Source: Acidobacteriota bacterium
Lineage (GTDB): Bacteria; Bacteroidota; Ignavibacteria; UBA10030; UBA8401
Reading direction: 5' to 3'
NCBI GenBank assembly: GCA_050258555.1
Contig: JBLMZA010000043.1
Coordinates: 2,372 to 66,371, forward strand
DNA length: 64,000 bases
In this document: piece by piece, positions 38,907 through 54,504 of the stretch
Layout of the letters: the number at the start of each line of letters is the position of its first letter
How positions within the stretch are numbered: position 1 is the stretch's first letter
Program-made: the position numbers and the translations under genes
The notes under the pieces: generated by a model
What the model was told of the DNA's origin: nothing
The model's input: only the letters and a program-made list of their open reading frames with translations
Database searches by the model: none

Positions 38907-40531
38907 AGGGGAAGGAAAAGCTTGATCGCCGTGCCTTTGCCGAGTTCCGATTCGATCTCGATCTTGCCGTTATGATCGTCGATGATCTTCTTCACGATCG
39001 CCATGCCGAGCCCCGTTCCGTGCTTCTTGCCGTGCGTGACGAAGGGCTCGAAAATCTTCCGCTTCACTTCCTCCGGCATGCCGGTGCCCGTATCGGCAAA
39101 TTCGATCATGAGCATCGAACCGAGATTTTCCGTCGTCACCGTGAGCGTGCCGCCCTCGGGCATGGCATCGGCGGCGTTGCCGGCGATGTTGTAGAAGACG
39201 CGCATCATCTTGTCCGGATCCATCATCACCGCGCCGTCGTAGTTCAGGCGCCTGACCAGCTCCACGTTCCGCTTCGTCAGATCCTTCTCGATGAACATCA
39301 GCGCCCCGTCGACCGCCTCGCTGCATGAGATCTCGCGCATATTCGTGGCGCTCACACCGCGGCTGAAGTCCAGGATCTCCTGAGTCATCGTCACGAACCG
39401 GTCGACCTGCGTGATCATCTCGTCGGCAAGCTTCGATGCTTCCTCGTTCCCCGATTTCTTCTTCATCACCTGCGCATACACGCGCAGCGTGCTCATGGGA
39501 TTCTTGATGTCGTGAATGATCGTGCTGGCCATGCGGCCGACGGCGGTGAGGCGCTCGTTGTTCACCATTTCCTTGGCGATGCGCGCGTTCTCGATCGCGA
39601 TCGACGCGTGCATCGACAGCGCGTTGATGAAATCCTCGTCGCCCTTCGTGAAGGGGGCATCCTTCTTGTTCAGGAGCTGGAAGACGCCGATCAGCTTGCC
39701 GTCCCGGTTGCGCATCGGCATGCAGAGCATGTTGTTCGTGCGGTAGCCCGTGCGCTTGTCGACTTCGGGATTGAAGCGCGGATCGTTGTAGGCGTCGGGA
39801 ATGCTGATCGTTTCTCCGGTCTTCGCCACGTATCCGGCCAGTCCCTTGCCGAGCGGAAGGCGGATCTCGGTGAGCTCCGTTCCCTGAATGACCGTGGACC
39901 AGATTTCGTTTTTCGCTTCATCGAGCAGATACAGCGTGCCTCTGTCGGCGCCGATGGACTTCGTGGCGGATTCGAGGATGACTTCGAGCAGCTTGTCGAG
40001 GTCGAGCGTGGAATTCACCGACTTCGTCGCTTCGATGAGCTGATTCAGGCGGCTGATATGCTGCTTCGAGATCTCGATCGTGCGGTCGAGTTCGGTCACG
40101 ATCGCCGTGTCGGCGCTGCGCAGACGCTTCACCATCGCCTTGAGCATGTTCAATGCGACAATGTGATTCGTCTTGATGAGCGAGTCGAAATCCTGCTGCG
40201 ACATGCAGGCGAGCACCGTATGGTCCACCGTCGTGGTGCGTGCCGAGCGCGGTTGGTCGTCCAGCAGTTCCATTTCTCCGAAGAATTCTCCTTTGCCGAG
40301 CGTCGTGATGTTGGTTTCGACTCCGTAGCGTGTGACCTTCGAGATGCGGACGCGTCCTTCAAGAATGAGATAGAGCCGTTCTCCTTTGGTATTCTCCTGG
40401 AAGATGAGCGTATCGGCGGGGTATGATTCCTCCTTGAGAATCTTGAGGATGTTCTGAAGATTGACGTCGCTGATGTATTTAAAAAGGGAATTGGCCTTGA
40501 GGTTCTCGACGGAAAGGAGTGAAGGTTCCAT
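38903..40531 (-). CDS. Sensor histidine kinase with N-terminal cyclic-nucleotide-binding domain and GAF domain
   Basis: cNMP-binding fold (LIFQENTKGERLYLILEGRVRISK...GEFFGEMELLDDQPRSARTTTV), GAF domain, H-box STIIHDIKNP and HATPase N/G boxes (GNAADAMPEGG, DTGTGMP, GTGLGMAI). ATG 40531 is M27 of the TTG-initiated track ORF. Confidence 0.8.
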   Translation of the reverse strand: MEPSLLSVENLKANSLFKYISDVNLQNILKILKEESYPADTLIFQENTKGERLYLILEGRVRISKVTRYGVETNITTLGKGEFFGEMELLDDQPRSARTTTVDHTVLACMSQQDFDSLIKTNHIVALNMLKAMVKRLRSADTAIVTELDRTIEISKQHISRLNQLIEATKSVNSTLDLDKLLEVILESATKSIGADRGTLYLLDEAKNEIWSTVIQGTELTEIRLPLGKGLAGYVAKTGETISIPDAYNDPRFNPEVDKRTGYRTNNMLCMPMRNRDGKLIGVFQLLNKKDAPFTKGDEDFINALSMHASIAIENARIAKEMVNNERLTAVGRMASTIIHDIKNPMSTLRVYAQVMKKKSGNEEASKLADEMITQVDRFVTMTQEILDFSRGVSATNMREISCSEAVDGALMFIEKDLTKRNVELVRRLNYDGAVMMDPDKMMRVFYNIAGNAADAMPEGGTLTVTTENLGSMLMIEFADTGTGMPEEVKRKIFEPFVTHGKKHGTGLGMAIVKKIIDDHNGKIEIESELGKGTAIKLFLPL

Positions 40532-40669
40532 GCGCGTTACGGGAGAAATGGGAGACACGGTTGCAAAAAAAATTAAAAAAAATTTACGACATCCGTTGGT
40601 CAGAATCAAGCACGCCGGGGCGAATAACCGCCTTCCGTGCAGGAGATGTGATCTGCTTCACACCCGGCG

Positions 40670-42808: not shown

Positions 42809-44500
42809 ATGATTTTTGATTTTTCAACATTGAACGGAATGCTGGCGCGCAGCGCGGAACGCTTCGCCGCCAGTCCGGCGCTCTCCACCGTCAACGGAGA
42901 GCCGCTGACATACGCCATGCTGTACGAGAAAGTGCGCGACATCTCCCGGCTGCTCCATGAGCAGGGCATCGTGGCCGGAGACCGCGTGGCCATTCTCAGC
43001 GAGAACAAGCCTGAATGGGCCGTCGCGTACTTTGCCGTGATCTTCACCGGAGCGATCGCGGTGCCGATCCTTCCCGATTTTCATTCGACCGAAGTGCAGC
43101 ACATCCTGCGCCATTCCGAGTGCAAGGCGATCTTCATTTCCGAACGGTACTATCAGAAGATCGAAGGCGGAACCTTCGATACGCTTTCCACGATCTTCCT
43201 GATCGACAATTTCTCGATCGTTCCTCCCCAGACGCAAAAAGGCCGTCTCAAGGAAATGCTCGATGAAGGGATGAAGGAATTTGCGAAGCTGAAGGAGTCG
43301 GCGATGCGCCTGGTGGGATGGATTCCGGCCGAGACGCAGCCCGACGATGTGGCATCCATCATCTACACATCGGGCACCACCGGCCACTCGAAAGGCGTGA
43401 TGCTCACGCACCGCAATCTGCTCGAGGATGTGAAGGCGACCGCCGAGCTGGTCTCGATCGTTCCGACCGACCGCATGCTGTCCATTCTTCCGCTGTCGCA
43501 TGCCTATGAAGGCACGCTCGGACTTCTCACGCCGCTTTCCTGCGGCATGTCGGTCTATTATCTCGACAAGCCGCCCACGCCGCAGGTGCTTCTGCCGGCC
43601 TTGCAGGCGGTCAGGCCGACCATCGTGTTGAGCGTGCCGCTGGTGATCGAAAAAATCTACCGGGGGAGAATCCTTCCCCAGCTCACGGCGAACAAGATCG
43701 CGCGGCGCCTCTATAAGGTTCCGTTTGTGCGCAAGCGGCTGAACCGCATCGCCGGCAAAAAACTGATGGAGACCTTCGGCGGCAACCTCCGGCTCTTCTG
43801 CATCGGCGGCGCGCCGCTGGCGCACGATGTGGAGCGCTTCCTGCGCGAAGCGCGGTTTCCGTATGCGATCGGCTACGGCCTCACCGAAACCTCGCCGCTC
43901 ATTGCCGGCACCGATACGCACGCGACGCGCTTCGGCTCGACGGGACCGGCGCTTGCCGGCGTCGAGCTCCGCATCGATCATCCCGATCCGCACAGCGGCG
44001 AAGGAGAGATCTGCGTCCGGGGCCCGGTCGTGATGAAGGGCTACTACAAGGATCCCGAGCGCACGCGCGAAGCCTTCACGATCGACGGCTGGTTTCGCAC
44101 GGGCGACCTCGGCGTGTTCGACCCGGACGGCTATCTCTTCATCAAAGGCCGTCTGAAGAATGTCATTCTCGGCCCGAGCGGCGAGAATATTTATCCGGAA
44201 GAGATCGAATCGGTGATCAACGAATTCGAGATCGTCAACGAATCTCTCGTCTTCTCCCAGCAGCACCAGCTCGTCGCGCGCGTGCATCTGAACTATGAAG
44301 CGATCGAGCGGCTGTATGCCGAGGAGGCGAAACTCGGCGAGTCGGAAATCAGGAAGAAGATCGACTCGCTGCTCCTGGAGCTTCGCGACGGGGTGAACGC
44401 CAGAGTCTCGAAATTCTCCCAGCTCAGCAGGGTGATCGAACAGATGGAGCCGTTCGAAAAGACGCCCACACAGAAGATCAAACGGTATCTCTATGCATAA
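42809..44500 (+). CDS. fadD: Long-chain fatty acid-CoA ligase (AMP-dependent synthetase/ligase)
   Basis: AMP-binding motif IYTSGTTGHSKGVMLTHRN, YGLTE, GWFRTGDLG and the C-terminal lid. AAGGAAA Shine-Dalgarno. Confidence 0.85.
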   Translation: MIFDFSTLNGMLARSAERFAASPALSTVNGEPLTYAMLYEKVRDISRLLHEQGIVAGDRVAILSENKPEWAVAYFAVIFTGAIAVPILPDFHSTEVQHILRHSECKAIFISERYYQKIEGGTFDTLSTIFLIDNFSIVPPQTQKGRLKEMLDEGMKEFAKLKESAMRLVGWIPAETQPDDVASIIYTSGTTGHSKGVMLTHRNLLEDVKATAELVSIVPTDRMLSILPLSHAYEGTLGLLTPLSCGMSVYYLDKPPTPQVLLPALQAVRPTIVLSVPLVIEKIYRGRILPQLTANKIARRLYKVPFVRKRLNRIAGKKLMETFGGNLRLFCIGGAPLAHDVERFLREARFPYAIGYGLTETSPLIAGTDTHATRFGSTGPALAGVELRIDHPDPHSGEGEICVRGPVVMKGYYKDPERTREAFTIDGWFRTGDLGVFDPDGYLFIKGRLKNVILGPSGENIYPEEIESVINEFEIVNESLVFSQQHQLVARVHLNYEAIERLYAEEAKLGESEIRKKIDSLLLELRDGVNARVSKFSQLSRVIEQMEPFEKTPTQKIKRYLYA

Positions 44501-46319
44501 GCGTCCGCATCCCGCTCTGGAGGCGAAGGTCAAATCGCTGGTGCTCGACCTCCGTTCGATGGAGGAGTGGTACCGCGGCATGTACGAGATGAACGCCGTG
44601 CCGGTGCTGCTCATCGATCCGGAATCGGCGGAAATCGAGGATGCCAATCCCTCGGCATGCCGTCTCTACGGATGGACGCGCGAACCGTTCGCGCGGATGC
44701 CTCTTGCGGCAATCGCGCCGGAGTTCCAGGCGTGGGATCGCGCGCTGGATCAGCTGGCCGACGGCAGGCAAGCGCATTTCCACACCACGCACCATGTGCG
44801 TGAGGGACTCATGCAGGATGTGGAAGTGTTCGCTGCGGGCTTTCCCCTCGGCGGCAGACTGATCGTCCATGCATCGCTCTACGACGTGAGCGAGAATAAA
44901 CGACTTGCACGCGCGCTCACCGAAAGCGAACAGACGTACCGTTCGCTGCTGACGCAGATCGACGACAGCGTCCTCTTCTTCAATATCGAGAGCCGCCAAC
45001 TGCTCAATTGCAACGACGCCTTTCAGGAGCTGACCGGATACTCGCACGAGGAACTGCCTTCCCATACCATCTATGATATCGTCGTGGAGGACCGCGCCTC
45101 GGTCGACGAGAATATCCGCACGGTTGATGAACGGCTCAGGCTCGATCTCCGCGAGCGGTTCCTGCGCTGCAAGGACGGAAGAATCCTCACGATGGACATC
45201 AATTCGTCGGTGGTGGGTACGGGCAGAAACCGCATGGTCTGCCTCATCATGCGCGACGTGACCGATCACAACCGGCTGGTGCAGGCGCTGAAGCGCAGCG
45301 AGGAGCTCTACCGGACGCTCTATGAGAACAACACGGCCGCGATGCTGCTGATCAATCCGCTCACCTCAACCATCATCGATGCAAATCCGACCGCGTGCGC
45401 GTTCTACGGATGGGATAAGAAGACCTTTCACGGAAAGAGCCTCACCGACATTGTCGCCGCGCCTGACGACAGCAAGATAGGCGAGATCGCGTTTTCGATG
45501 CACGGCAGTTCCGACCACTTCTTCATGCGCCAGCGCGCCGCCAACGGCAGCACGCGCGAAGTGGAAGTCTACACCAGTCCCGTGCGTCTGCGCCACACGC
45601 ATCTGATGTATGCGATCGTACACGATGTGACCGAAAAGGTGAAGACGGAAGAGGAACTGAAGCAGTCGCAGGAGGACCTGCGCCGCCTTGCGCTCCACCT
45701 TGAAACGGTGCGCGAGGAGGAGCGGACGCACATCGCGCGTGAAGTGCACGACGAACTGGGGCAGGCCCTCACGGCGCTGAAGATGGATGCGCGATGGATC
45801 GAGAATTCATTCGGTGCGGCGAATCCGCAGCTCAAGACGAAGACCGTCGCGATGCAGAAGCTGATCGACTCCACGGTCAAATCCGTTCAGCGCATTTCCT
45901 CCGAACTGCGCCCCGGCATGCTCGACGATCTCGGACTCGGCGCGGCGATCGAGTGGCAGACGGAGGAATTCGAAGCGCGCACAGGCGTGCACTGCATGCT
46001 CAGGATCGTTCCCGATGAGATTGTCGTCGACGAGAAGATCGCCACCACGGTCTTCCGCGTGTTCCAGGAGACGCTCACGAACATCGCACGGCATGCCGAA
46101 GCGAGCGTGGTGCACATCTCGCTGCTGAAGAACGAGGGGATGCTGACGCTTTCCGTGCGCGACAATGGAAAGGGGATCTATGACCACGACATCCACGCCA
46201 AGAAGTCGATCGGCCTGATGGGCATCCGCGAGCGCGTGCGGAGCCATAAGGGAACGGTGGACATCATCGGACGCAGCACGATTGGCACGGCGGTGATCGT
46301 GAAGATCCCCCTCGGATAA
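44493..46319 (+). CDS. PAS-domain sensor histidine kinase (HisKA_3 / NarX-type)
   Basis: Three PAS/PAC modules, then H-box REVHDELGQALTALK and an HATPase_c domain. 8-nt overlap with fadD. Confidence 0.85.
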   Translation: MHKRPHPALEAKVKSLVLDLRSMEEWYRGMYEMNAVPVLLIDPESAEIEDANPSACRLYGWTREPFARMPLAAIAPEFQAWDRALDQLADGRQAHFHTTHHVREGLMQDVEVFAAGFPLGGRLIVHASLYDVSENKRLARALTESEQTYRSLLTQIDDSVLFFNIESRQLLNCNDAFQELTGYSHEELPSHTIYDIVVEDRASVDENIRTVDERLRLDLRERFLRCKDGRILTMDINSSVVGTGRNRMVCLIMRDVTDHNRLVQALKRSEELYRTLYENNTAAMLLINPLTSTIIDANPTACAFYGWDKKTFHGKSLTDIVAAPDDSKIGEIAFSMHGSSDHFFMRQRAANGSTREVEVYTSPVRLRHTHLMYAIVHDVTEKVKTEEELKQSQEDLRRLALHLETVREEERTHIAREVHDELGQALTALKMDARWIENSFGAANPQLKTKTVAMQKLIDSTVKSVQRISSELRPGMLDDLGLGAAIEWQTEEFEARTGVHCMLRIVPDEIVVDEKIATTVFRVFQETLTNIARHAEASVVHISLLKNEGMLTLSVRDNGKGIYDHDIHAKKSIGLMGIRERVRSHKGTVDIIGRSTIGTAVIVKIPLG

Positions 46320-46349: not shown

Positions 46350-46976
46350 ATGATCAGGGTGTTATTGGCAGACGACCATACGATTGTCCGCGAAGGGCTC
46401 CGTATGATGCTCGAACAGACGGAAGATATCCGCGTGACCGATGAGGCGGGAAACGGAACGGAGACGCTCGAGAAACTCGAGAAGCACGACACCGATGTCG
46501 TGGTGCTCGATATCGCCATGCCGGATATGAACGGGATCGAAGTGCTCCGGCAGATCAAGCAGAAGCATCCAGCGGTGCATGTGATGATGCTCAGCACGTA
46601 TCCCGAAAAGCAGTATGCCGTGCGCGCGCTCAAATCCGGAGCATCCGGCTATCTGACGAAGGATAGTGCGACCGAAGAACTCATCACCGCGATCCGGCGT
46701 GCGGCGCAGGGGCGCAAATACCTGAGTGTGGAACTCGCCGAGAAGATCGCGGATAACTTCGATAATTCGACCAAGGCGCCGCATGAACTGCTCTCGGAAC
46801 GGGAATATGACGTGATGATCCTACTGGGCAAGGGAAACTCCGTGTCGGCCATCGCCGAATTGCTGTCCCTGTCGGTTCCTACAGTCAATACATACCGCGC
46901 CCGAATCCTTCAAAAACTCAATCTGTCCGGCAATTCCGCCGTGATTCATTATACGATCGAAAACAAGCTCATCTAA
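46350..46976 (+). CDS. NarL/LuxR family response regulator
   Basis: Receiver domain (VLLADDH...VVVLDIAMPDMNG...K) plus C-terminal LuxR HTH (LSEREYDVMILLGKGNSVSAIAELLSLSVPTVNTYRARILQKL). Confidence 0.9.
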   Translation: MIRVLLADDHTIVREGLRMMLEQTEDIRVTDEAGNGTETLEKLEKHDTDVVVLDIAMPDMNGIEVLRQIKQKHPAVHVMMLSTYPEKQYAVRALKSGASGYLTKDSATEELITAIRRAAQGRKYLSVELAEKIADNFDNSTKAPHELLSEREYDVMILLGKGNSVSAIAELLSLSVPTVNTYRARILQKLNLSGNSAVIHYTIENKLI

Positions 46977-47069: not shown

Positions 47070-47173
47070 AACGATACCCTTGAAATGAATCCGTGCCTAT
47101 CTTACATGCAGACCATTGCATCGGCTGCAGCACGGCCGATGCGAGCACCATCACATTCATGGGCATCGGGACT

Positions 47174-47566
47174 ATGGCACGCATTTTTTTAGGATATCAG
47201 TCTGCGCTTGTCGGAGCGCGGCTTTCTGAGATGCTGACCGAAATGAACGGAGTGGATCTCATGGGCGTCGTTTTCGAGAGCGACAAGCTCGAGCATGCGC
47301 TCGAGACGCTCGAGCCGGAAATCGCCATCGTTGACATCCGTCTTCTGATCGCCTCGCGTATCGGAGACTTGAATGTTCTGAAGACGCGGTTTCCGGAGAC
47401 TCAGTTCATCCTTCTCTACGATTTCCCCTACAATCAATATTCACGCGAATGCAAACGATTCGGAGCGGAATATTGCTTCGAAACGCTGCATCAGTTCATG
47501 GATATTGAACGCGTCGTTGCGGAGTATAACCGCCGCCGGCGTACACGCATGTCGCGCGCCTCATAG
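47174..47566 (+). CDS. Stand-alone receiver-like (CheY-like) domain protein
   Basis: MARIFLGYQ...EIAIVDIRLL...ILLYDFP is a CheY-like fold with no output domain. The start is uncertain; the alternative is ATG 47159. Confidence 0.5.
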   Translation: MARIFLGYQSALVGARLSEMLTEMNGVDLMGVVFESDKLEHALETLEPEIAIVDIRLLIASRIGDLNVLKTRFPETQFILLYDFPYNQYSRECKRFGAEYCFETLHQFMDIERVVAEYNRRRRTRMSRAS

Positions 47567-47668
47567 GCCTGCGGCGTTCACCGCGTCGTTTCCCCGACGA
47601 TAAAAAATTCGAAAAGGCAGGCCGCTATGGGGGAGACGGCCTGCCTTTGGAAGTTCTTGCAGCACCAA

Positions 47669-47716
47669 AAAGAAAGGGCCCGTCGACTCGGAGCGAGACG
47701 GGCCCTTTCTTTTTTT
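47669..47716 (+). terminator. Strong rho-independent terminator (bidirectional potential)
   Basis: Perfect 16-bp stem aaagaaagggcccgtc/gacgggccctttcttt with a 12-nt loop, followed by TTTT. A second 10-bp hairpin (aggcaggccg/cggcctgcct) lies at 47615-47646. Confidence 0.75.
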
Positions 47717-47812: not shown

Positions 47813-47898
47813 ATGGTGCCCGAAGGGAGACTTGAACTCCCATGCGCTCACGCGCGCCGCCTCCTGAAGACGGTGTGTCTGCCATTTCACCATTCGGG
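47813..47898 (-). tRNA. tRNA-Leu (anticodon CAG)
   Basis: Manual fold: acceptor GCCCGAA/TTCGGGC; D-arm GTG-AAATGGCAGA-CAC; anticodon stem CCGTC/GGCGG with loop TTCAGGA; long variable arm CGCGCGTGAGCGCAT; T-arm GGGAG-TTCAAGT-CTCCC; discriminator A plus encoded CCA. 86 nt. Confidence 0.85.
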
Positions 47899-48072
47899 CA
47901 TTGTTGCGTTACAGCATAACAAACATACGAAAACATTTGGCGGAAATCAAGACGAACGGGAAAAAAAAATCACTTCCGTCCATATCAATTTCATTCCTTG
48001 TTTTTCATTCGATGTTTGCCTATTTTTAGAGTATCATCTCAAGTATAACCTCACAAAAGGAGACGACCACGA

Positions 48073-48681
48073 ATGAAATCAAAAGGACTTATCATCGCTC
48101 TGGCAGTCGTCGGCGGCATTATCCTGATCGGCATCATGACGATCACATGGGGTGTCCGCACATACAATATGCTCGTGGGCATGGACGAATCGGTCAACGG
48201 CGCCTGGTCCCAGGTGCAGAATCAATATCAGCGGCGGTTCGATCTGATCCCGAATCTCGTCGAGACCGTGAAGGGATATGCGACGCACGAAAAGGAAACG
48301 CTTGAGAATGTCACCAATGCGCGTGCGAAAGTCGGGCAGATGGTCATTTCACCCGAAGTCCTGAAAAATCCGCAGGCCTTCCAGATGTTCGAGAAGGCGC
48401 AGGGCGAACTCTCGTCGGCGCTGACGCGTCTCATGGCCGTTTCCGAGAACTATCCCAATTTGAAGGCGAACGAGAATTTCCTCCAGCTGCAGGCGCAGCT
48501 CGAGGGGACGGAAAACAGGATCTCTGTTGAGCGCCGCCGCTTCAACGAGGTCGTGCAGGCGTACAATGCCAGGATCCGGACCGTTCCGACATCGCTTGTC
48601 GCCGGCTTCGGCGGATTCACACCCAAGCAGTATTTCCAGGCTGCTGCCGGCGCAGAAGCCGCTCCGAAAGTGAAATTCTGA
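48073..48681 (+). CDS. lemA: LemA family protein
   Basis: N-terminal transmembrane helix plus the LemA domain (YNMLVGMDESVNGAWSQVQNQYQRRFDLIPNLVETVKGYATHEKETL). AAGGAG Shine-Dalgarno. Confidence 0.9.
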   Translation: MKSKGLIIALAVVGGIILIGIMTITWGVRTYNMLVGMDESVNGAWSQVQNQYQRRFDLIPNLVETVKGYATHEKETLENVTNARAKVGQMVISPEVLKNPQAFQMFEKAQGELSSALTRLMAVSENYPNLKANENFLQLQAQLEGTENRISVERRRFNEVVQAYNARIRTVPTSLVAGFGGFTPKQYFQAAAGAEAAPKVKF

Positions 48682-48682
48682 T

Positions 48683-49459
48683 ATGTCTCCATCCGTCCGA
48701 TTCCGTCGTCATCTGTTGCTGGCCGCCCTGCTCTTGGCGTGCGCCGCCGTCCGGCTCGCCGCACAGAGTCCTGCGATACCGAAACTGACATCGCCTGTCT
48801 ACGACGCCACCTCGACGTTGAGTGCAGCAGAACAGGCGGCGCTGGTGCGTGAAGTGCGCCGGTTCGAGGACAGCACATCGAATCAGATCGCCGTCGTCGT
48901 CATTCCGTCGATCGGCGATGCGGACATCCGCGAATACGGCATCGACGTGCTGAAACAAAATGCGATCGGGCAGAAGGGGCGCGACAACGGCGTGCTGCTC
49001 CTGGTCGCGAAGGACGACAGAAAAGTGTCGATCGAGGTGGGATACGGACTCGAGGGCGTGCTGCCCGATGCCGTGTGCAGCCAGATCATACGCAACGAAC
49101 TCTCTCCGCGCTTCAGGGAAGGAGACTTCTTCGGCGGCATCGCGTCGGCCGTCCGGTCCATCGAGCAGGCCACGCAGGGAGAGTATAAAGGGACAGGGAA
49201 AAAATCGAAGAACGGCTCCGGGTCGTTTGCGCTGCTGCTTGTCGTTTTCGTGATCGGCGCGATCCTCATGTCGATTTTCCGGGGTGGACGGCGGTATTCC
49301 ATTAAGGGGCGCGGCTATCGTTCGGGACCGTGGTGGTGGGGAGGCGGCGGGTTTGGAGGCGGCGGATTCGGCGGCGGCGGATTCGGCGGAGGCGGCGGGG
49401 GCGGATGGTCGGCCGGCGGCGGATCGTTTGGAGGCGGGGGAGCAAGCGGAAGCTGGTAG
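48683..49459 (+). CDS. TPM-domain (YgcG-like) protein with C-terminal transmembrane helix and Gly/Phe-rich tail
   Basis: Signal peptide; TPM/DUF477 fold (PVYDATSTLSAAEQAALVREVRRFEDSTSNQIAVVVIPSIGDADIREYGIDVLKQNAIGQKGRDNGVLLLVAKDDRKVSIEVGYGLEG); transmembrane helix; (GGGF)n tail. Confidence 0.85.
   Translation: MSPSVRFRRHLLLAALLLACAAVRLAAQSPAIPKLTSPVYDATSTLSAAEQAALVREVRRFEDSTSNQIAVVVIPSIGDADIREYGIDVLKQNAIGQKGRDNGVLLLVAKDDRKVSIEVGYGLEGVLPDAVCSQIIRNELSPRFREGDFFGGIASAVRSIEQATQGEYKGTGKKSKNGSGSFALLLVVFVIGAILMSIFRGGRRYSIKGRGYRSGPWWWGGGGFGGGGFGGGGFGGGGGGGWSAGGGSFGGGGASGSW
49345..49440 (+). repeat. Short tandem repeat encoding the Gly-Gly-Gly-Phe tail
   Basis: ggcggcgg(a/g)ttcgg units repeated about four times within the TPM gene 3' end. 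Low-complexity coding repeat. Confidence 0.5.
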
Positions 49460-49508
49460 AGGGAATACTCCGGCACACATGAATGGATTAATTAAGGACG
49501 CTCAGACG

Positions 49509-50180
49509 ATGGCAGAAGCAGTGAAAATACTCGTTGTGGATGACGACCCGCAGTTCTCGCGATTCATCGAAATGCTCCTTCTCCAAAGCGGCAAAGGCTG
49601 CTTCAGCGTGACAATGTGCGGCGATGCCACGTCGACTCTCGGCCTGCTCAAGCGGGACAGCACATTTGATGTCATCCTGCTCGATTATTATTTGCCCGGC
49701 ATGAACGGCGATGCGCTGATCCGGACGCTTATCGAGAACGGCGTCTACGTGCCGGTGATCTTCGTAACGGTGATCAAGGAATTCCGGCTCGCCGTTGAAG
49801 CGATGAAGCTCGGCGTCTACAATTATCTGGTCAAGGAAAACCTTACGGCACAAACGCTCATCAAATCCGTCTATAACGTGGTCGAGCGCAATCGCCTGCG
49901 GCAGGAACTCTCCACGCTCGAGGTGAGCACCAACCGCCTCGAAGCGATACAGGAACTGGTCTTCGACATCAGCCGCAATCTGGTCGAACCGATTGCGGCG
50001 ATGCGCAGAGATGTTGCCGAGCTGCAGAAGAATCCCGGCCTCGGCGATATGCATACGTATCTGCGCATCATCAGCGACAACATCGAACGCATGCAGGCAA
50101 AGCTCGACAAGTTGAAAATGCTGAAGGAAGACAAGACGATCGAATACGTGAAGAATATCCGCATGCTTGATCTTTCATAA
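49509..50180 (+). CDS. Response-regulator receiver protein with C-terminal coiled-coil / degenerate HisKA-like helical domain
   Basis: KILVVDDDPQFSRF...DVILLDYYLPGMNG...K receiver domain, then a roughly 100-aa helical region with no output HTH. Start 49509 (MAEAVKILVVDDD, AAGGA Shine-Dalgarno); the alternative is ATG 49479. Confidence 0.65.
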   Translation: MAEAVKILVVDDDPQFSRFIEMLLLQSGKGCFSVTMCGDATSTLGLLKRDSTFDVILLDYYLPGMNGDALIRTLIENGVYVPVIFVTVIKEFRLAVEAMKLGVYNYLVKENLTAQTLIKSVYNVVERNRLRQELSTLEVSTNRLEAIQELVFDISRNLVEPIAAMRRDVAELQKNPGLGDMHTYLRIISDNIERMQAKLDKLKMLKEDKTIEYVKNIRMLDLS

Positions 50181-50183
50181 CCG

Positions 50184-50642
50184 ATGGAGACAGCCGTGGC
50201 ACATACGCTTCTGACAGAAGAAGAGCTTCGACGCATCGCCTCGACGATCGGAGAGGTGGAAGAATCGACGAGCGGCGAGATACGCGTGAACATACACGAG
50301 AAGCGGTCGTGGACCGAGCGCAGGCTCAGCCTTCGCGATCTTGCGCTGAAGCACTTCCATTCCCTCGGCATGGAAAAAACGCGGGACAAGACCGGAGTGC
50401 TGATCTTCATCTGCGTGCGCGAGCGCGAATTCTATATCGCCGCCGATGAAGGGATACATGCGAAGTTTCCGCAGGAGTATTGGGACTCGGTTGCAGAAAC
50501 GATGACACGCCAGTTCAAGGCGAGCCGTTTCTGCGAAGGCATCTGCTTCGCGGTGCGCGAGATCGGCACGGCGCTTGCCCGGGAGTTCCCGCTGCGCGAA
50601 GGGGATACGAACGAACTATCGAACGACGTGAGTTTTACTTAA
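50184..50642 (+). CDS. TPM-domain protein (second TPM paralog of the LemA cluster)
   Basis: TPM/DUF477 signature (EIRVNIHEK...KTGVLIFICVREREFYIAADEGIHAKFPQEYWDS). Cytoplasmic form lacking a signal peptide. Confidence 0.8.
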   Translation: METAVAHTLLTEEELRRIASTIGEVEESTSGEIRVNIHEKRSWTERRLSLRDLALKHFHSLGMEKTRDKTGVLIFICVREREFYIAADEGIHAKFPQEYWDSVAETMTRQFKASRFCEGICFAVREIGTALAREFPLREGDTNELSNDVSFT

Positions 50643-50654
50643 CAGGTCTCAAGC

Positions 50655-51515
50655 ATGAATTGTACAGTAGCAGTCGCGCAGATCGATGCGGCAGTGGGCA
50701 ATCTCAAGGCAAATGCGGCGCGCCATGCCGACGCCGTGCGGAAGGCGATCGCGGCGCGCGCCGACATCGTCGTCTTTCCTGAACTGAGCCTTACCGGCTA
50801 CACGGTGCGCGATCTGAATTGGGATGTCGCACTCCGTGCGCAGAAGCAGGAGTTGTTCGACGAACTGATCAACCTGAGCTCGCAGATCACGATCGTCTTC
50901 GGAGCGGTGGAAGAGGCTCCCAATTTCGGCATCTATAATTCGGCGTTCGTGATCGAAGAGGGAATCATTGCTTCGGCGCACCGCAAGGTGTATCCGCCGA
51001 CATACGGCATGTTCGAGGAGATGCGGTACTTTTCGCGCGGATCCGATGTGCGCTGCTTCGAATCGAGGCACGGACGGCTCGGCATCCTGATCTGCGAGGA
51101 CCTGTGGCACATGTCGCTGCCGTATGTGCTGGCGCAGGACGGTGCGGAGGTCATCATCGGCATTGCGGCCAGCCCGACGCGCCTGTCGGGACAGTCGGCC
51201 ATGCTGCCGGGCCTGGCGCTCAATTACGAGCATCATAAGACGTATGCGCGCCTGCTCAGCTCCTACATCGTGTATTGCAACCGCGTGGGCATGGAAGACG
51301 GTGTGAGTTTCTGGGGCGGATCGCATGTGGTGGGACCGGCCGGCGACATTCTGGCGCAGGCGCAGCTGTTCGAAGAGGATCTGATTACGGCGAGAATCGA
51401 AGCCAACGAAGTGCGGCGTGCCCGGCGCTTATCGCGCCACTTTATCGACGATGACATGCATCTCACGGTCCAGCAGCTTGAACGCATACAGAGAGAGCGC
51501 GATGCACAGCGCTGA
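50655..51515 (+). CDS. Carbon-nitrogen hydrolase (nitrilase superfamily) protein
   Basis: Catalytic triad context E (VVFPELSLTGY), K (HRKVYPP) and C (ILICEDLWH). Confidence 0.85.
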   Translation: MNCTVAVAQIDAAVGNLKANAARHADAVRKAIAARADIVVFPELSLTGYTVRDLNWDVALRAQKQELFDELINLSSQITIVFGAVEEAPNFGIYNSAFVIEEGIIASAHRKVYPPTYGMFEEMRYFSRGSDVRCFESRHGRLGILICEDLWHMSLPYVLAQDGAEVIIGIAASPTRLSGQSAMLPGLALNYEHHKTYARLLSSYIVYCNRVGMEDGVSFWGGSHVVGPAGDILAQAQLFEEDLITARIEANEVRRARRLSRHFIDDDMHLTVQQLERIQRERDAQR

Positions 51516-51524
51516 CAACATCGC

Positions 51525-52139
51525 ATGAGAATACGCCTCATACTGCCGGCTGTACTCCTCCTTGCAGCCGCCGCCGCGTTCGGCGGCGACGACGGGGCGC
51601 CGCGTCCCGCGCGTGATCTCTTCACTGCGGCATGCCGCGAGACAGGCAAGGAACTTGCGGCCGGAAGCGGGCTTTCACGGAGCGCGTCTGTCCTGGTCCG
51701 CTTCGCCGGAGACAAAACGGAATTCTTCCGCACGCCGCTCATGGATGCGCTTTCGGCGGCATGCGGCGCGGTCTACGTCTCCGGCGCATCGGCCGATACG
51801 ATTGTCACGTTCGGCATCGAAGACGCGGCGATCGGCTATGGACCCGCGTTCCGCGAAGGATGGTTCCGAGAACGCAGGACCGAGCGCTCGGTCCGGGTCC
51901 GTCTGCGCATGGAGATGATTTCCTCTTCCAGCGGAAAGGTGCTCTATACGCGGACGCTTGACGGCCTTGAGCGCGATACGATCGCGGTCGACGAGATCCA
52001 GGAAACGGGCGCCTCGGCGCGGCACATCGCCGTTGGCGCGGCTCCCGAGCCATCGCTGTGGGAACGCATCCTGGAACCCGCGATTCTGACGGTGTCGTCG
52101 GGAATTGCGGTCTACCTGTTTTTCACTGTTCGAAGCTGA
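51525..52139 (+). CDS. Hypothetical exported protein with C-terminal membrane anchor
   Basis: Signal peptide MRIRLILPAVLLLAAAAAFG and C-terminal transmembrane helix ILTVSSGIAVYLFF. No recognisable family. Confidence 0.5.
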   Translation: MRIRLILPAVLLLAAAAAFGGDDGAPRPARDLFTAACRETGKELAAGSGLSRSASVLVRFAGDKTEFFRTPLMDALSAACGAVYVSGASADTIVTFGIEDAAIGYGPAFREGWFRERRTERSVRVRLRMEMISSSSGKVLYTRTLDGLERDTIAVDEIQETGASARHIAVGAAPEPSLWERILEPAILTVSSGIAVYLFFTVRS

Positions 52140-52144
52140 CCGCA

Positions 52145-53188
52145 ATGCAGGCGCGCCGGACGATGCATATGCTTTTCCTGTTTGGCGCCGGCGCCTGGCT
52201 GTACTTCGGTTTGACGACGGATTACCGGACGCATATACGGAAGAATACGGCGTACGGTGTGCCGGCAGGCCGTGCGACGCTTCTGGCATTCGGCGACGTG
52301 AATCTGGGGCGCACGCTCGGCCGGCAGCTGCTGCGCGAGGGTCCCGGCTGCGTGTTCGACGAATTCCGGTTCGATACGGCCGACGTCGTCTTCGTGAATC
52401 TGGAAAGCACGCTTTCGGATCAGGGCGGCGAGACCGAATCGCCGGAGAGCAATTACATTTTCACAGGGCCGCCGGTCGGCGCGCTTGCGCTGGCGCGCGC
52501 GGGCATCACGGTTGTCGCGACGGCGAACAATCACGCCTATGATTACGGCGAGCGCGCGCTGAAGGAAACGATCGATCACCTCGATGCGGCGAACATCGGG
52601 CATGCAGGCACGTCCAAAGAGGAAGAGACCGTGCTCGAGCCGCTCTGCCTCACGGCTAACGGGATGAAGTTCGCATTCTTTGCGGTGACCGATTTCATGA
52701 ACATGGGATACGGCTGGCGCCGTCATGCGGCTGCGGCCGATTCGGCGAGGCTGTTTCCGAAGCTGCGCGAGGCCGCCGGGTGGGCCGATGCGGTGATCGT
52801 CAGCGTCCACGGCGGCGATGAGTATGCCGATGTGCCGTCGGCGCGCGTCTCGGCATTCATGCGCGCCTGCATCGACCAGGGAGCCATGCTCGTGCTGGGA
52901 CATCATCCGCATGTGCCGTACGGCATCGATTCGGTCCGGGGCGGCTACATCGTTTCCTCGCTCGGCAATTTTGTATTTTCGCAGCCGCAGCGGGAATGGA
53001 CGCAGCTGAGCTACGGCGTGCTCTTCGAATTTACGCGGGCAGGGAGGCGCGCTGACATCCGGCTCCGGCGCGTCATCCCGATCGAGACCGGCTTCCGGCC
53101 GCTGCGCATGGACCGCCGTGAAGGGCGCGAGAAAATCATGGCGCGCGCCCAGCAGTATTCGTCTTTTTCATTGAAGCAGTTTTATTAA
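52145..53188 (+). CDS. capA: CapA family protein (PGA-synthesis-type metallophosphatase fold)
   Basis: LLAFGDVNLGR, VFVNLES, TVVATANNHAYDYG and LVLGHHPHV, the CapA/YwtB calcineurin-like signature. N-terminal transmembrane helix. Confidence 0.8.
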   Translation: MQARRTMHMLFLFGAGAWLYFGLTTDYRTHIRKNTAYGVPAGRATLLAFGDVNLGRTLGRQLLREGPGCVFDEFRFDTADVVFVNLESTLSDQGGETESPESNYIFTGPPVGALALARAGITVVATANNHAYDYGERALKETIDHLDAANIGHAGTSKEEETVLEPLCLTANGMKFAFFAVTDFMNMGYGWRRHAAAADSARLFPKLREAAGWADAVIVSVHGGDEYADVPSARVSAFMRACIDQGAMLVLGHHPHVPYGIDSVRGGYIVSSLGNFVFSQPQREWTQLSYGVLFEFTRAGRRADIRLRRVIPIETGFRPLRMDRREGREKIMARAQQYSSFSLKQFY

Positions 53189-53209
53189 CTCATAACGACA
53201 CGTAATCCT

Positions 53210-54037
53210 ATGACAGCAGTACGACGACAGTTCCCCATTGCGGCGGCATTCATCCTCATCACGGGCGCGGCGATTCTACTTTCATCCTGCAGCGCGAGCA
53301 AGAGCGCCGAAGAGCCGATGACGGCCGAAGGACAGTTTGCCCGGGCGATGAAGGAATTCAATGATGAAAAGTACCTCGATGCAATCGAAGCCTTCAAAAC
53401 GATCACAGTCCAGTATCAGGGAAGCGGCGTCGCCGATGCGGCGCAGTTCTATATCGGCGAATCGCGATTCAACCGCGGCGAATACATACTTGCCGCCGCC
53501 GAGTACGACATGCTGATCCGTTCGATGCCGTCGTCAAAATATATTCCGACGGCGCGCTACAAGCGTGCGCTTGCCTACTACGAGATGTCGCCCAAGTCGC
53601 AGCTCGATCAGAAGTATACGCGGCTGGCGATCGACGACTTCCAGACGTTTCTGGAATACGCGCCGAACGATTCGCTCGCCAAAGACGCAGACGCGAAGGT
53701 CCGCGAGCTCACCGACAAACTCGCCCGGAAGATTTTCGAGAGCGGCAGGCTCTACTTCCGGCGCGAATATTACAAGGCGGCGATCGTCTATTTCGACAAT
53801 GTGATCGACCAGTATCACGACACCCGGTATGCCGACCAGGCGATGTACTGGAAGGCGCGCGCCCAGCGCGAACGCAGGGAATATGACGCCTCGCTCAGGA
53901 CGCTCGACCAGCTCTTTGAAAAATTCCCGTCCACATCACTGAAGGACGATGCACAATCGCTGCGCAAGGAAGTCGAACGCCTGAAGCTTCTGCCGGCGGA
54001 AGGCAGCGGCGCAGGCAAATCCGACGGAGCGTTATGA
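53210..54037 (+). CDS. bamD: Outer membrane protein assembly factor BamD (YfiO/ComL-like lipoprotein)
   Basis: Lipobox LLSSC and TPR-like repeats (FNDEKYLDAIEAFK..., YYKAAIVYFDNVIDQY). Confidence 0.75.
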   Translation: MTAVRRQFPIAAAFILITGAAILLSSCSASKSAEEPMTAEGQFARAMKEFNDEKYLDAIEAFKTITVQYQGSGVADAAQFYIGESRFNRGEYILAAAEYDMLIRSMPSSKYIPTARYKRALAYYEMSPKSQLDQKYTRLAIDDFQTFLEYAPNDSLAKDADAKVRELTDKLARKIFESGRLYFRREYYKAAIVYFDNVIDQYHDTRYADQAMYWKARAQRERREYDASLRTLDQLFEKFPSTSLKDDAQSLRKEVERLKLLPAEGSGAGKSDGAL

Positions 54038-54504
54038 GCGAAGCCAAAACCGTGAAACAATCGCAGGCACGCATGACGCAGCTCGTGCTGCCGGACGAGA
54101 CCAATCAGCTGGGCAACCTGCTCGGAGGCCAGCTCATGCACTGGATCGATCTTGTAGCTGCGATCGCCGCGATGCGGCATGCGCGGAAGGTCTGCGTGAC
54201 CGCGTCGGTCGACGAGATCAATTTCATCAATCCGGTAAAGCAGGGCGAAGTCGTCACTCTTCTTGCGTCAGTCAACCGCGTGTTTACGACCTCGATGGAA
54301 ATCGGCGTCTCCGTTTCGGCGGAGAACCTGCTGACGGGGGAAACGCATCACACGAATTCCGCTTATCTGACATTCGTAGCCATCGATGAACAGGGAAGGC
54401 CCGTGCCGGTCGATCCGATCGTCTGCGAGGACGATGGGGAGATCCGGCGGTTCAATGAGGCTCTTCATCGGCGCGAACTGCGGCTTCAGCGGCGGATCAA
54501 ATAA
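54034..54504 (+). CDS. Acyl-CoA thioesterase (hot-dog fold, YciA-like)
   Basis: MTQLVLPDETNQLGNLLGGQLMHWIDLVAAIAA...VTASVDEINFINPVKQGEVV; ATGA overlap with bamD. Confidence 0.85.
   Translation: MSEAKTVKQSQARMTQLVLPDETNQLGNLLGGQLMHWIDLVAAIAAMRHARKVCVTASVDEINFINPVKQGEVVTLLASVNRVFTTSMEIGVSVSAENLLTGETHHTNSAYLTFVAIDEQGRPVPVDPIVCEDDGEIRRFNEALHRRELRLQRRIK

What the first reader, a model, noticed from the sequence alone, without database searches (positions are those of the whole stretch)
48073..50642. LemA-TPM-TPM module interrupted by a receiver and coiled-coil protein
LemA with two TPM (DUF477/YgcG-type) proteins is a widespread, functionally unassigned membrane module. Here a response-regulator receiver with a C-terminal coiled-coil (a degenerate HisKA-like helical domain with no DNA-binding output) is inserted between the exported and cytoplasmic TPM paralogs. 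Junctions are tight (48681/48683; 50180/50184). This suggests the module is phosphorylation-controlled, which I do not believe has been described.
Basis: partly seen in the sequence, partly recalled or inferred. Interest (0 to 1): 0.5.

Follow-up and report, generated by a model that had tools for sequence, protein, structure and literature searches.

The report
Truncated kinase-like receiver inside LemA–TPM operon
A membrane-associated gene trio of unknown function (LemA plus two TPM proteins) is split here by a small signalling protein, the leftover of a sensor-kinase cassette that sits at the same spot in related bacteria; the two modules also occur apart, so control of the trio by phosphorylation is possible but not shown.

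Summary
Four co-directional, tightly packed genes encode LemA (48073-48681), an exported, membrane-anchored BA41-like TPM protein (48683-49459), a 223-aa receiver protein (49509-50180) and a cytosolic BA42-like TPM protein (50184-50642).

The receiver keeps all of its phospho-acceptor residues. Its C-terminus is a DHp/HisKA-type helical hairpin that has lost the phospho-His, and the protein ends where a kinase's ATP-binding domain would begin.

In 34 orthologous loci from Ignavibacteria/Bacteroidota MAGs this gene almost always follows a large cytoplasmic PAS/GAF histidine kinase, often with a small receiver between them, and precedes a CN-hydrolase gene. LemA-TPM1 lies upstream in 21 of 25 informative loci and TPM2 directly downstream in 15 of 32. 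The window's clade has lost the kinase, but the receiver gene remains under purifying selection (dN/dS about 0.1).

The two modules also occur apart. The kinase cassette is found without any TPM gene nearby, and the same syntenic block is found with LemA-TPM1-DAHP synthase-TPM2 and no kinase cassette. DAHP synthase is an unrelated gene that occupies the same junction.

The receiver is therefore best read as the remnant of an embedded two-component cassette, co-expressed with LemA/TPM. Dedicated phospho-control of the module is plausible (about 0.25) but unproven. I rate it a new variant of known kinds, of moderate interest.

The parts
48073..48681 (+). LemA family protein (202 aa): N-terminal TM helix plus helical-bundle domain
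   Evidence: Pfam PF04011 E 1.6e-62. PDB 2ETD LemA 2.2e-49. NCBIfam MamQ 1e-30, below that model's cutoff.
48683..49459 (+). TPM1, BA41-like (258 aa): signal peptide, TPM domain, TM helix, Gly-rich cytosolic tail
   Evidence: Pfam PF04536 E 1.7e-41. PDB 5ANP BA41 1.5e-33 over residues 7-258. Signal peptide, TM helix and tail were read from the sequence.
49509..50180 (+). REC-DHp protein (223 aa; alternative ATG at 49479), a truncated kinase-type response regulator
   Evidence: Homologues and P0001 start here. Pfam Response_reg 1.7e-18. dN/dS 0.08-0.13 against L086-L088.
49509..49847 (+). Receiver domain (residues 1-113) with intact D12, D59, T87 and K109
   Evidence: These columns are invariant or nearly invariant in A1 and A2. 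The AF2 model shows a (beta-alpha)5 fold with pLDDT about 90.
49848..50123 (+). DHp/HisKA-like helical hairpin (residues 114-205). The phospho-His column is Arg (ISRNLVEPI); the H-box Pro is kept.
   Evidence: Aligns to canonical H-boxes of the sister clade and of REC-HisKA-HATPase kinases. Pfam HisKA scores only E 0.61 here but 3.7e-8 in P0049. The AF2 model has helices 114-173 and 181-205.
50124..50177 (+). Family-signature C-terminal tail, LKEDKTIEYVKNIRMLDLS. It aligns to the DHp-CA linker and first CA strand of intact kinases.
   Evidence: Conserved in all 34 orthologues whatever their neighbours. Aligns to '..KEIDLNKVV' of P0062 and similar proteins. Predicted disordered, pLDDT below 50.
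50184..50642 (+). TPM2, a BA42-like stand-alone cytosolic TPM protein (152 aa; the database start gives 148 aa)
   Evidence: Pfam PF04536 1e-16. PDB 4OA3/2LT2 BA42 7e-24. P0099 is 99% identical.
50655..51515 (+). CN-hydrolase, a near-constant downstream neighbour of the REC-DHp gene in relatives
   Evidence: Pfam PF00795 1.2e-37. Follows REC-DHp, or REC-DHp-TPM2, in all informative loci except L013, L024 and L027. Resembles the NAD synthase glutaminase domain at 6e-49, below the cutoff.
51525..54504 (+). Rest of the conserved co-directional block: hyp204, PGA_cap, BamD/YfiO and 4HBT thioesterase
   Evidence: The same order is found in most related loci.

Best explanation
What the gene encodes. 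The interrupting gene encodes a kinase-derived response regulator. It has an intact phospho-receiver whose last helix runs into a DHp-type helical hairpin. That hairpin has lost the phospho-accepting His, and the protein stops where the ATP-binding domain of a REC-HisKA-HATPase kinase would begin.

Where it came from. It is the surviving member of a two-component cassette: a cytoplasmic multi-PAS/GAF histidine kinase, an optional ~146-aa receiver, and REC-DHp. An ancestor of this Ignavibacteria-like lineage acquired the cassette at the junction between the two TPM genes of a LemA-TPM-TPM operon, a junction that also holds DAHP synthase in many relatives. The window's clade later deleted the kinase, the small receiver and DAHP synthase, but kept REC-DHp under purifying selection.

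Inferred mechanism. REC-DHp is phosphorylated on Asp59 by a kinase now encoded elsewhere in the genome. Phosphorylation re-packs the receiver dimer and is passed along the continuous alpha5-DHp helix to a dimeric four-helix bundle and the conserved C-terminal tail. These act by protein-protein contact, most likely within the kinase pathway itself: DivL-like docking of a receiver or kinase, or a phosphate sink or connector role.

Relation to LemA/TPM. Its place in the operon makes it co-expressed with LemA and the TPM proteins, but it is not an obligate or dedicated controller of them.

Shown: gene anatomy, homology, loss of the His, truncation point, the synteny statistics and purifying selection. 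Inferred: phosphorylation, dimerisation, partner identity, co-transcription.
For: - Receiver residues D12, D59, T87 and K109 are conserved.
- H-box homology with the His lost. The column is variable (R/K/Q/T/N/G/S/A/D/E) and His is retained only in L018 and L031.
- The tail aligns to the DHp-CA junction of full REC-HisKA-HATPase kinases. The best full-length PDB sequence match is LvrB 8VC9.
- The AF2 model (pLDDT 81.9) shows a receiver plus helical hairpin plus disordered tail.
- Tally over 34 orthologous loci: kinase immediately upstream in 26 of 31 informative loci, CN-hydrolase downstream in all but 3, LemA(-TPM1) upstream in 21 of 25, TPM2 downstream in 15 of 32.
- The kinases are PAS/GAF-HisKA-HATPase and not hybrid; the extra gene at the junction is DAHP synthase.
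- Close relatives share the kinase-less arrangement, with dN/dS 0.08-0.13 at dS about 1.
- The block occurs without the cassette in L090 and L091, which nest among cassette-bearing loci in the CN-hydrolase tree.
- Gaps between genes from LemA to CN-hydrolase are mostly under 50 nt in all loci.
- The DHp+tail module is a small family with a single architecture: 44 cluster representatives among 1.84 billion.
Against: - LemA-TPM1 upstream of the cassette in 21 of 25 loci, and REC-DHp-to-TPM2 gaps of 3-18 nt in all 15 loci that have TPM2, are what a real functional link would also produce.
- In the window's clade the gene stayed between the TPM genes after its kinase was lost, which could mean its relevant partners are the TPM/LemA proteins.
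- 'TPM2 absent from the locus' is not 'absent from the genome'. Solo BA42-like genes exist elsewhere in related MAGs, so the dissociation is shown only at the level of the locus.
- No kinase for this protein was identified in the 64-kb window. The three kinases there are not orthologues of the cassette kinase.
- The NJ trees carry no support values.
Confidence: 0.55

Rival explanations
1. REC-DHp is the phospho-switch of the LemA-TPM-TPM module. When phosphorylated, its helical bundle or tail binds the cytosolic BA42-like TPM protein, the cytosolic tail of TPM1, or LemA, and so gates the module's activity or assembly. The PAS/GAF kinase in relatives would be the sensor for this module.
For: - The cassette sits inside the LemA-TPM1...TPM2 string across orthologues of 37-88% identity, with operon-like spacing.
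- TPM2 at this position looks ancestral: it is present in three deep clades.
- The window clade kept REC-DHp between the TPM genes after losing the kinase, under purifying selection.
- The conserved but disordered beta-prone tail could complete a partner's sheet. TPM sheets are known to be completed by a strand supplied from elsewhere, in trans by AscG in AscF/AscG and by the protein's own C-terminal tail in BA42 (PMC13456599).
Against: - All occurrences descend from one syntenic block, so no independent association has been shown.
- The cassette also occurs with no LemA or TPM nearby (L002, L018, L024, L031), or without TPM2 (17 of 32 loci).
- The module also occurs without the cassette (L090, L091, and the canonical L092).
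- The tail is equally conserved where TPM2 or LemA are not adjacent.
- DAHP synthase shares the junction.
- The canonical triad works without any receiver in other bacteria.
Confidence: 0.25
2. REC-DHp works with the downstream genes instead. It would modulate the CN-hydrolase (similar to the NAD synthase glutaminase domain), or more broadly the envelope-related string hyp204-PGA_cap-BamD-4HBT.
For: CN-hydrolase is a near-constant downstream neighbour, missing only in L013, L024 and L027, with gaps from -4 to 97 nt where the two genes abut. The downstream string is conserved in most loci.
Against: L090 and L091 keep CN-hydrolase and the whole downstream string without REC-DHp. There is no precedent or structural hint for such an interaction. 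The conserved order may be simple syntenic inertia.
Confidence: 0.1
3. The gene is a decaying, functionless remnant left behind when the kinase cassette was deleted from the window's clade.
For: The phospho-His is lost and that column is variable. The adjacent kinase and small receiver are gone from this clade.
Against: dN/dS is 0.08-0.13 at dS about 1 among four species of the kinase-less clade, similar to the neighbouring CN-hydrolase. The reading frame is intact, all receiver catalytic residues are conserved, and the tail is highly conserved.
Confidence: 0.03

Closest known systems
Canonical LemA-TPM-TPM operon (LemA as in T. maritima 2ETD; BA41 and BA42 of Bizionia argentinensis)
   Same: All three components are present, in the same order and on the same strand: LemA, then a BA41-like exported TPM protein with a TM helix and Gly-rich tail, then a BA42-like stand-alone TPM protein. 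An uninterrupted example was seen in L092.
   Different: Here the triad is split between the two TPM genes by a receiver gene. In relatives it is split by up to four genes (DAHP synthase, kinase, receiver, REC-DHp). The function of the canonical module is itself unknown. For TPM the debate is between a phosphatase/ATPase and an assembly factor (PMC11237479, PMC13456599, 10.1101/2025.01.14.632903). MamQ is the only LemA member linked to a known process (PMC4902198).
LvrB-type REC-HisKA-HATPase hybrid response regulator/kinases (PDB 8VC9)
   Same: An N-terminal receiver followed directly by a DHp. It is the best full-length sequence match in the PDB (profile positions 7-210). Database relatives P0062, P0063, P0077, P0086 and P0097 have this architecture and align through the tail.
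   Different: The window protein lacks the whole CA (HATPase) domain and the phospho-His, so it can neither autophosphorylate nor transfer phosphate through His.
Sister clade of REC-HisKA proteins that keep the His but lack a CA domain (P0043-P0052; loci L033-L046)
   Same: Similar length and the same two-domain architecture, with 30-35% identity over about 70-90% of the length.
   Different: They keep a canonical H-box (MCHEFNNPLAAIK) and lack the LKEDKTVxYIKxIRMxDLS tail. They sit divergently from a small receiver plus a ~456-aa second response regulator (domains not checked), never next to LemA or TPM.
DivL-type histidine pseudokinase (Caulobacter)
   Same: A DHp that has lost the phospho-His and is thought to signal by docking a receiver rather than by phosphotransfer. 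This is a functional analogy drawn from established knowledge (see abstracts of PMC9430884 and PMC4853435).
   Different: DivL keeps a CA domain and PAS sensors and has no N-terminal receiver. No sequence relationship was tested here.
Spo0B/ChpT DHp-type histidine phosphotransferases
   Same: A DHp-like helical bundle without kinase activity. The cassette order in relatives (kinase, receiver, REC-DHp) resembles a phosphorelay.
   Different: Those proteins need the His for phosphotransfer, and it is absent here and in most orthologues. They also carry a pseudo-CA domain.

Membership tests
LemA family (PF04011) | Match to the family profile above the curated cutoff; N-terminal TM helix plus helical bundle | tested here: met
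   210 bits against a cutoff of 26.2. 2ETD 2e-49. The TM helix was read from the sequence.
TPM domain family (PF04536), BA41-like | TPM domain above cutoff, with signal peptide, C-terminal TM helix and low-complexity tail | tested here: met
   141.6 bits against a cutoff of 22.1. Full-length alignment to BA41 5ANP at 1.5e-33.
TPM domain family (PF04536), BA42-like stand-alone | A single TPM domain with no signal peptide or TM helix | tested here: met
   61.5 bits against a cutoff of 22.1. BA42 4OA3 7e-24 over residues 9-150.
TPM domain family | Phosphatase or ATPase activity, or metal binding | not testable with these tools
   These activities are reported for TLP18.3, BA41 and BA42 but are disputed (PMC13456599, PMC11237479).
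Canonical LemA-TPM-TPM operon | Three contiguous genes | tested here: not met
   A 672-nt receiver gene lies between TPM1 and TPM2. The canonical contiguous form is seen in L092.
Response regulator receiver (PF00072) | Profile match plus the acidic pair, phospho-Asp, Thr/Ser and Lys | tested here: met
   67 bits against a cutoff of 30.2. D12, D59, T87 and K109 are conserved.
Response regulator receiver | Actually phosphorylated by a cognate kinase | not testable with these tools
   There is no adjacent kinase in the window's clade. Orthologues sit next to a PAS/GAF kinase.
HisKA / DHp domain (PF00512) | Homology to the DHp helical hairpin | tested here: met
   Aligns with the H-box and helix 2 of His-bearing relatives and of full kinases. 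The AF2 model shows a hairpin. The Pfam score of the window protein itself is below threshold (E 0.61), while P0049 scores 3.7e-8.
HisKA / DHp domain (PF00512) | Conserved phospho-accepting His in the H-box | tested here: not met
   The column is Arg in the window, and K/Q/T/N/G/S/A/D/E in other orthologues.
Histidine kinase | HATPase_c catalytic domain | tested here: not met
   The protein ends at the DHp-CA junction and has no HATPase hit.
Spo0B/ChpT/Hpt phosphotransferase | Phosphorylatable His | tested here: not met
   The His is absent.
Anti-phage defence systems (PADLOC) | Match to a defence-system protein model | tested here: not met
   Only two marginal partial hits, E 2e-4 to 4e-4.

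The most novel reading that the evidence does not exclude
An ancient two-component cassette is a genuine sensory input to the LemA-TPM-TPM module. A giant cytoplasmic PAS/GAF kinase signals to the His-less REC-DHp adaptor. The adaptor's conserved C-terminal strand then docks, in a phosphorylation-dependent way, onto the cytosolic BA42-like TPM protein or the cytosolic tail of the membrane TPM protein. If so, this would be the first known regulatory input for a widespread membrane module whose function is still unassigned.
Probability: 0.2. Interest if true: 0.6.

Novelty: new variant of a known kind. Interest (0 to 1): 0.35.

Why it matters
LemA and TPM proteins are widespread and still lack an assigned function. 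MamQ is the only LemA member tied to a known process, and the role of the TPM domain is disputed between an enzyme and an assembly factor. A conserved signalling cassette embedded in the operon would give an experimental entry point: which signal, which kinase, and which partner.

Separately, the REC-DHp family shows how a receiver-kinase fusion can be cut back to a receiver plus a catalytically dead dimerisation hairpin while staying under selection. That adds a bacterial pseudokinase-type adaptor to the list of response-regulator outputs.

The value is limited for three reasons. The link between the signalling cassette and LemA/TPM rests on a single inherited syntenic block. Each of the two modules occurs without the other. 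The family is confined to one uncultured lineage.

Tried and rejected
- The longest ORF for the receiver (GTG 49284, 298 aa) was rejected. It overlaps the TPM1 Gly-rich tail, and homologues start at 49509.
- I looked in the window for the orthologue of the cassette kinase. The three kinases there (3491-5671 minus strand, 38903-40609 minus strand, 44493-46319 plus strand) score only 2e-17, 6e-25 and 1e-10 against HK_L001, whereas true orthologues score 1e-140 or better, and their architectures differ. The upstream HisKA_3 kinase and NarL-type pair is a separate unit, cut off by hairpins and an opposite-strand tRNA-Leu.
- No DAHP synthase, M48 peptidase or GDH homologue was found in the window.
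- The Foldseek search against the PDB returned mostly receiver-only matches and added little beyond a REC-plus-helix similarity to 6OAP and LvrB.
- The promoter/terminator scan found no more sites than the shuffled controls and placed no plus-strand terminator at a gene boundary.
- PADLOC gave no defence-system link.
- Literature searches for LemA+TPM, LemA/YgcG/DUF477/BA42, and TPM with two-component terms found no description of a receiver or kinase embedded in a LemA-TPM operon. That library lacks most subscription journals, so this absence is weak evidence.
- The decaying-remnant idea was rejected on the dN/dS result.
Full report
**Observation.** The region holds four co-directional genes.
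- LemA, 48073-48681: Pfam LemA 1.6e-62; PDB 2ETD 2e-49.
- TPM1, 48683-49459: TPM domain 1.7e-41, with a signal peptide, a TM helix and a Gly-rich tail. It aligns over its full length to BA41 (5ANP) at 1.5e-33.
- A receiver protein: Response_reg 1.7e-18, with no DNA-binding domain.
- TPM2, 50184-50642: TPM 1e-16; BA42 (4OA3) 7e-24; no signal peptide or TM helix.

The quoted junctions are correct. The only correction concerns the receiver gene's start. The 298-aa ORF from GTG 49284 overlaps the TPM1 tail. Homologues and the identical database protein P0001 (223 aa) start at ATG 49509, which leaves a 49-nt spacer after TPM1. A tRNA-Leu on the opposite strand (47814-47899) and GC-rich hairpins at about 47617-47716 (read by eye) separate this string from the upstream HisKA_3 kinase and NarL-type pair.

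**What the interrupting protein is.** An alignment of 33 homologues (A1) shows an intact receiver. D12, T87 and K109 are invariant and the phospho-Asp D59 is nearly so.

The C-terminal half is homologous to the DHp (HisKA) hairpin. A sister clade (P0043-P0052) carries a textbook H-box, MCHEFNNPLAAIK, and passes Pfam HisKA (3.7e-8 for P0049). The window protein has Arg at the His column (ISRNLVEPI) and scores only E 0.61. Across orthologues that column is R/K/Q/T/N/G/S/A/D/E, and His survives only in L018 and L031.

Aligned with full REC-HisKA-HATPase kinases (A2), the protein ends at the DHp-CA junction. Its last 18 residues, LKEDKTIEYVKNIRMLDLS, align with the linker and first CA strand ('..KEIDLNKVV'). 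This tail is the most conserved part of the family and is conserved whatever the neighbouring genes are.

The AF2 model (pLDDT 81.9) gives a receiver whose helix alpha5 continues into a long helix (114-173), a turn, a second helix (181-205) and a disordered tail. The best full-length PDB sequence match is the REC-HisKA-HATPase protein LvrB, 8VC9. Foldseek added little.

The DHp+tail module is rare. It has 44 cluster representatives among 1.84 billion, and every full-length one is 215-250 aa with the module at the C-terminus.

The protein is therefore a receiver-kinase fusion cut back to a receiver plus a catalytically dead dimerisation hairpin.

**Context in relatives.** I collected 34 distinct orthologous loci from Ignavibacteria/Bacteroidota MAGs and tabulated their neighbours with phmmer. 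The modal order is:

LemA - TPM1 - [DAHP synthase] - PAS/GAF-HisKA-HATPase kinase (700-2000 aa, not hybrid) - [~146-aa receiver] - REC-DHp - [TPM2] - CN-hydrolase - ... - hyp204 - PGA_cap - BamD - 4HBT.

Counts over informative loci:

| Feature | Count |
|---|---|
| Kinase directly upstream of REC-DHp | 26 of 31 (missing only in the four window-clade loci and L028) |
| CN-hydrolase downstream | all but L013, L024, L027 |
| LemA(-TPM1) upstream | 21 of 25 |
| TPM2 directly downstream | 15 of 32 |

Gaps between genes are mostly under 50 nt everywhere. The gap from REC-DHp to TPM2 is 3-18 nt in all 15 cases.

The close relatives of the window (76-88% identity; L086-L088) share the kinase-less order LemA-TPM1-REC-DHp-TPM2-CN-hydrolase. 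Within that clade REC-DHp has dN/dS 0.08-0.13 at dS about 1, similar to its neighbours. So the gene is functional without an adjacent kinase.

**Dissociation of the two modules.** Starting from TPM2 homologues, I found four kinds of context:
- a canonical, uninterrupted LemA-TPM-TPM (L092);
- the same syntenic block as the window with LemA-TPM1-DAHPS-TPM2-CN-hydrolase and no kinase, receiver or REC-DHp (L090, L091);
- a cassette-bearing block (L093);
- solo BA42-like genes elsewhere in the genome (L094, L095).

In a CN-hydrolase NJ tree, L090 and L091 nest among cassette-bearing loci, which suggests the cassette was lost secondarily while the TPM genes stayed. Conversely, L002, L018, L024 and L031 keep kinase-REC-DHp with no LemA or TPM nearby, and 17 loci lack an adjacent TPM2. 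The REC-DHp tree shows TPM2 at this position in three deep clades, so it is probably ancestral there and was removed from the locus at least five times.

Caveats: the trees are NJ without support values, and 'absent from the locus' does not mean absent from the genome.

**Interpretation.** What is conserved, however, is a whole two-component cassette, and the window retains only its last gene. That cassette shares the TPM1|TPM2 junction with an unrelated metabolic gene. All instances descend from one syntenic block, so they count as one evolutionary event rather than repeated association.

The best-supported reading is that REC-DHp belongs first to the PAS/GAF kinase pathway. It would be phosphorylated on D59 and would signal through its helical bundle and tail by protein-protein contact, by analogy with DivL-type pseudokinases and NtrC1/DctD-type receiver-coiled-coil switches. 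It is co-expressed with LemA/TPM rather than dedicated to them (confidence about 0.55). Direct phospho-control of the LemA-TPM module remains a live alternative (about 0.25). Persistence of the gene between the TPM genes after the kinase was lost, and the tight coupling to TPM2, favour that alternative. A role with CN-hydrolase or the downstream envelope genes is possible (about 0.1). Decay is disfavoured (about 0.03).

**Comparison with what is known.**
- TPM function is unsettled. TLP18.3, BA41 and BA42 are reported to have phosphatase or ATPase activity, whereas comparative-genomics work argues for an assembly-factor role and AscF acts as an adapter subunit (PMC13456599; PMC11237479; 10.1101/2025.01.14.632903).
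- LemA has one functionally linked member, MamQ (PMC4902198). The window LemA hits the MamQ model at 1e-30, below that model's cutoff.
- In F. columnare, lemA and a gene for a TPM-domain protein both rise when sppA is deleted, an envelope-stress condition (PMC13236525).
- My searches found no report of a receiver or kinase embedded in a LemA-TPM operon, and none of this His-less REC-DHp family. The library is incomplete, so this is weak evidence of novelty.

**Verdict.** The feature is real and accurately described. It is a lineage-specific variant of two known kinds: a LemA-TPM-TPM operon and a kinase-derived response regulator. The proposed phospho-control is unproven and is weakened by the dissociation of the two modules. 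Interest 0.35.

Noticed in passing
window 47814-47899 (minus strand): A tRNA-Leu(CAG) gene lies directly upstream of LemA on the opposite strand. The 87-aa ORF at 47813-48076 overlaps it and is spurious.
   Followed up: partly
window ~47617-47650 and ~47673-47716: Two GC-rich hairpins, the second followed by a T-run, lie after the 47093-47566 ORF. They look like terminators of the upstream kinase-NarL operon. The scanner missed them, probably because the loop is longer than 8 nt.
   Followed up: no
window 47093-47566 (+): A 157-aa ORF downstream of the HisKA_3 kinase (44493-46319) and the NarL-type regulator (46350-46976). It reads like a degenerate receiver but has no Pfam or NCBIfam hit.
   Followed up: no
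window 50178-50186: REC-DHp and TPM2 are in the same reading frame, separated only by TAA CCG. The database model of TPM2 (P0099, 148 aa) starts four codons later.
   Followed up: no
window 51525-52139 (+): A 204-aa protein with a signal-peptide-like N-terminus and a C-terminal hydrophobic helix. It is conserved in most related loci but matches no Pfam or NCBIfam family.
   Followed up: partly
L004, L006-L008, L021, L023, L028, L032, L090, L091, L093: A DAHP synthase gene (with an FXD domain) sits between TPM1 and the next gene, so the TPM1|TPM2 junction has taken in unrelated genes more than once.
   Followed up: yes
L009, L011-L013, L015, L018, L020, L024, L027, L031: The kinases next to REC-DHp in these loci are giant (about 2000 aa) cytoplasmic proteins. 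The one scanned, from L011, gave six PAS-type and four GAF-type matched stretches.
   Followed up: partly
L018 and L031 REC-DHp orthologues: The H-box His is retained (VVHEFEVPL, FIHDFEDPV) in a clade whose loci lack LemA and TPM, whereas it is lost elsewhere. The His seems to have been lost several times, or only gradually.
   Followed up: partly
L094 5001-5456; L095 5074-5529: Solo BA42-like TPM genes lie next to divergent His_Phos_1, AhpC and ECF-sigma genes. The cytosolic TPM paralogue can therefore live apart from LemA and TPM1.
   Followed up: no
L009, L011, L013, L021, L029, L030 (upstream of LemA): A second, PGA_cap-like gene sits immediately upstream of LemA in several relatives, in addition to the conserved PGA_cap gene downstream.
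   Followed up: no
P0001 / P0099 source labels: NCBI labels the MAG that carries the identical proteins 'Acidobacteriota bacterium'. Every related locus comes from Bacteroidota/Ignavibacteria-labelled MAGs, and one relative is labelled Bacteriovoracaceae, so some of these taxonomic labels are probably wrong.
   Followed up: no
L033-L046: The His-bearing REC-HisKA sister clade always sits divergently from a ~123-aa receiver plus a ~456-aa protein that matched only receiver-containing queries (possibly NtrC-type; its domains were not checked). This is a different circuit, with no LemA or TPM.
   Followed up: partly
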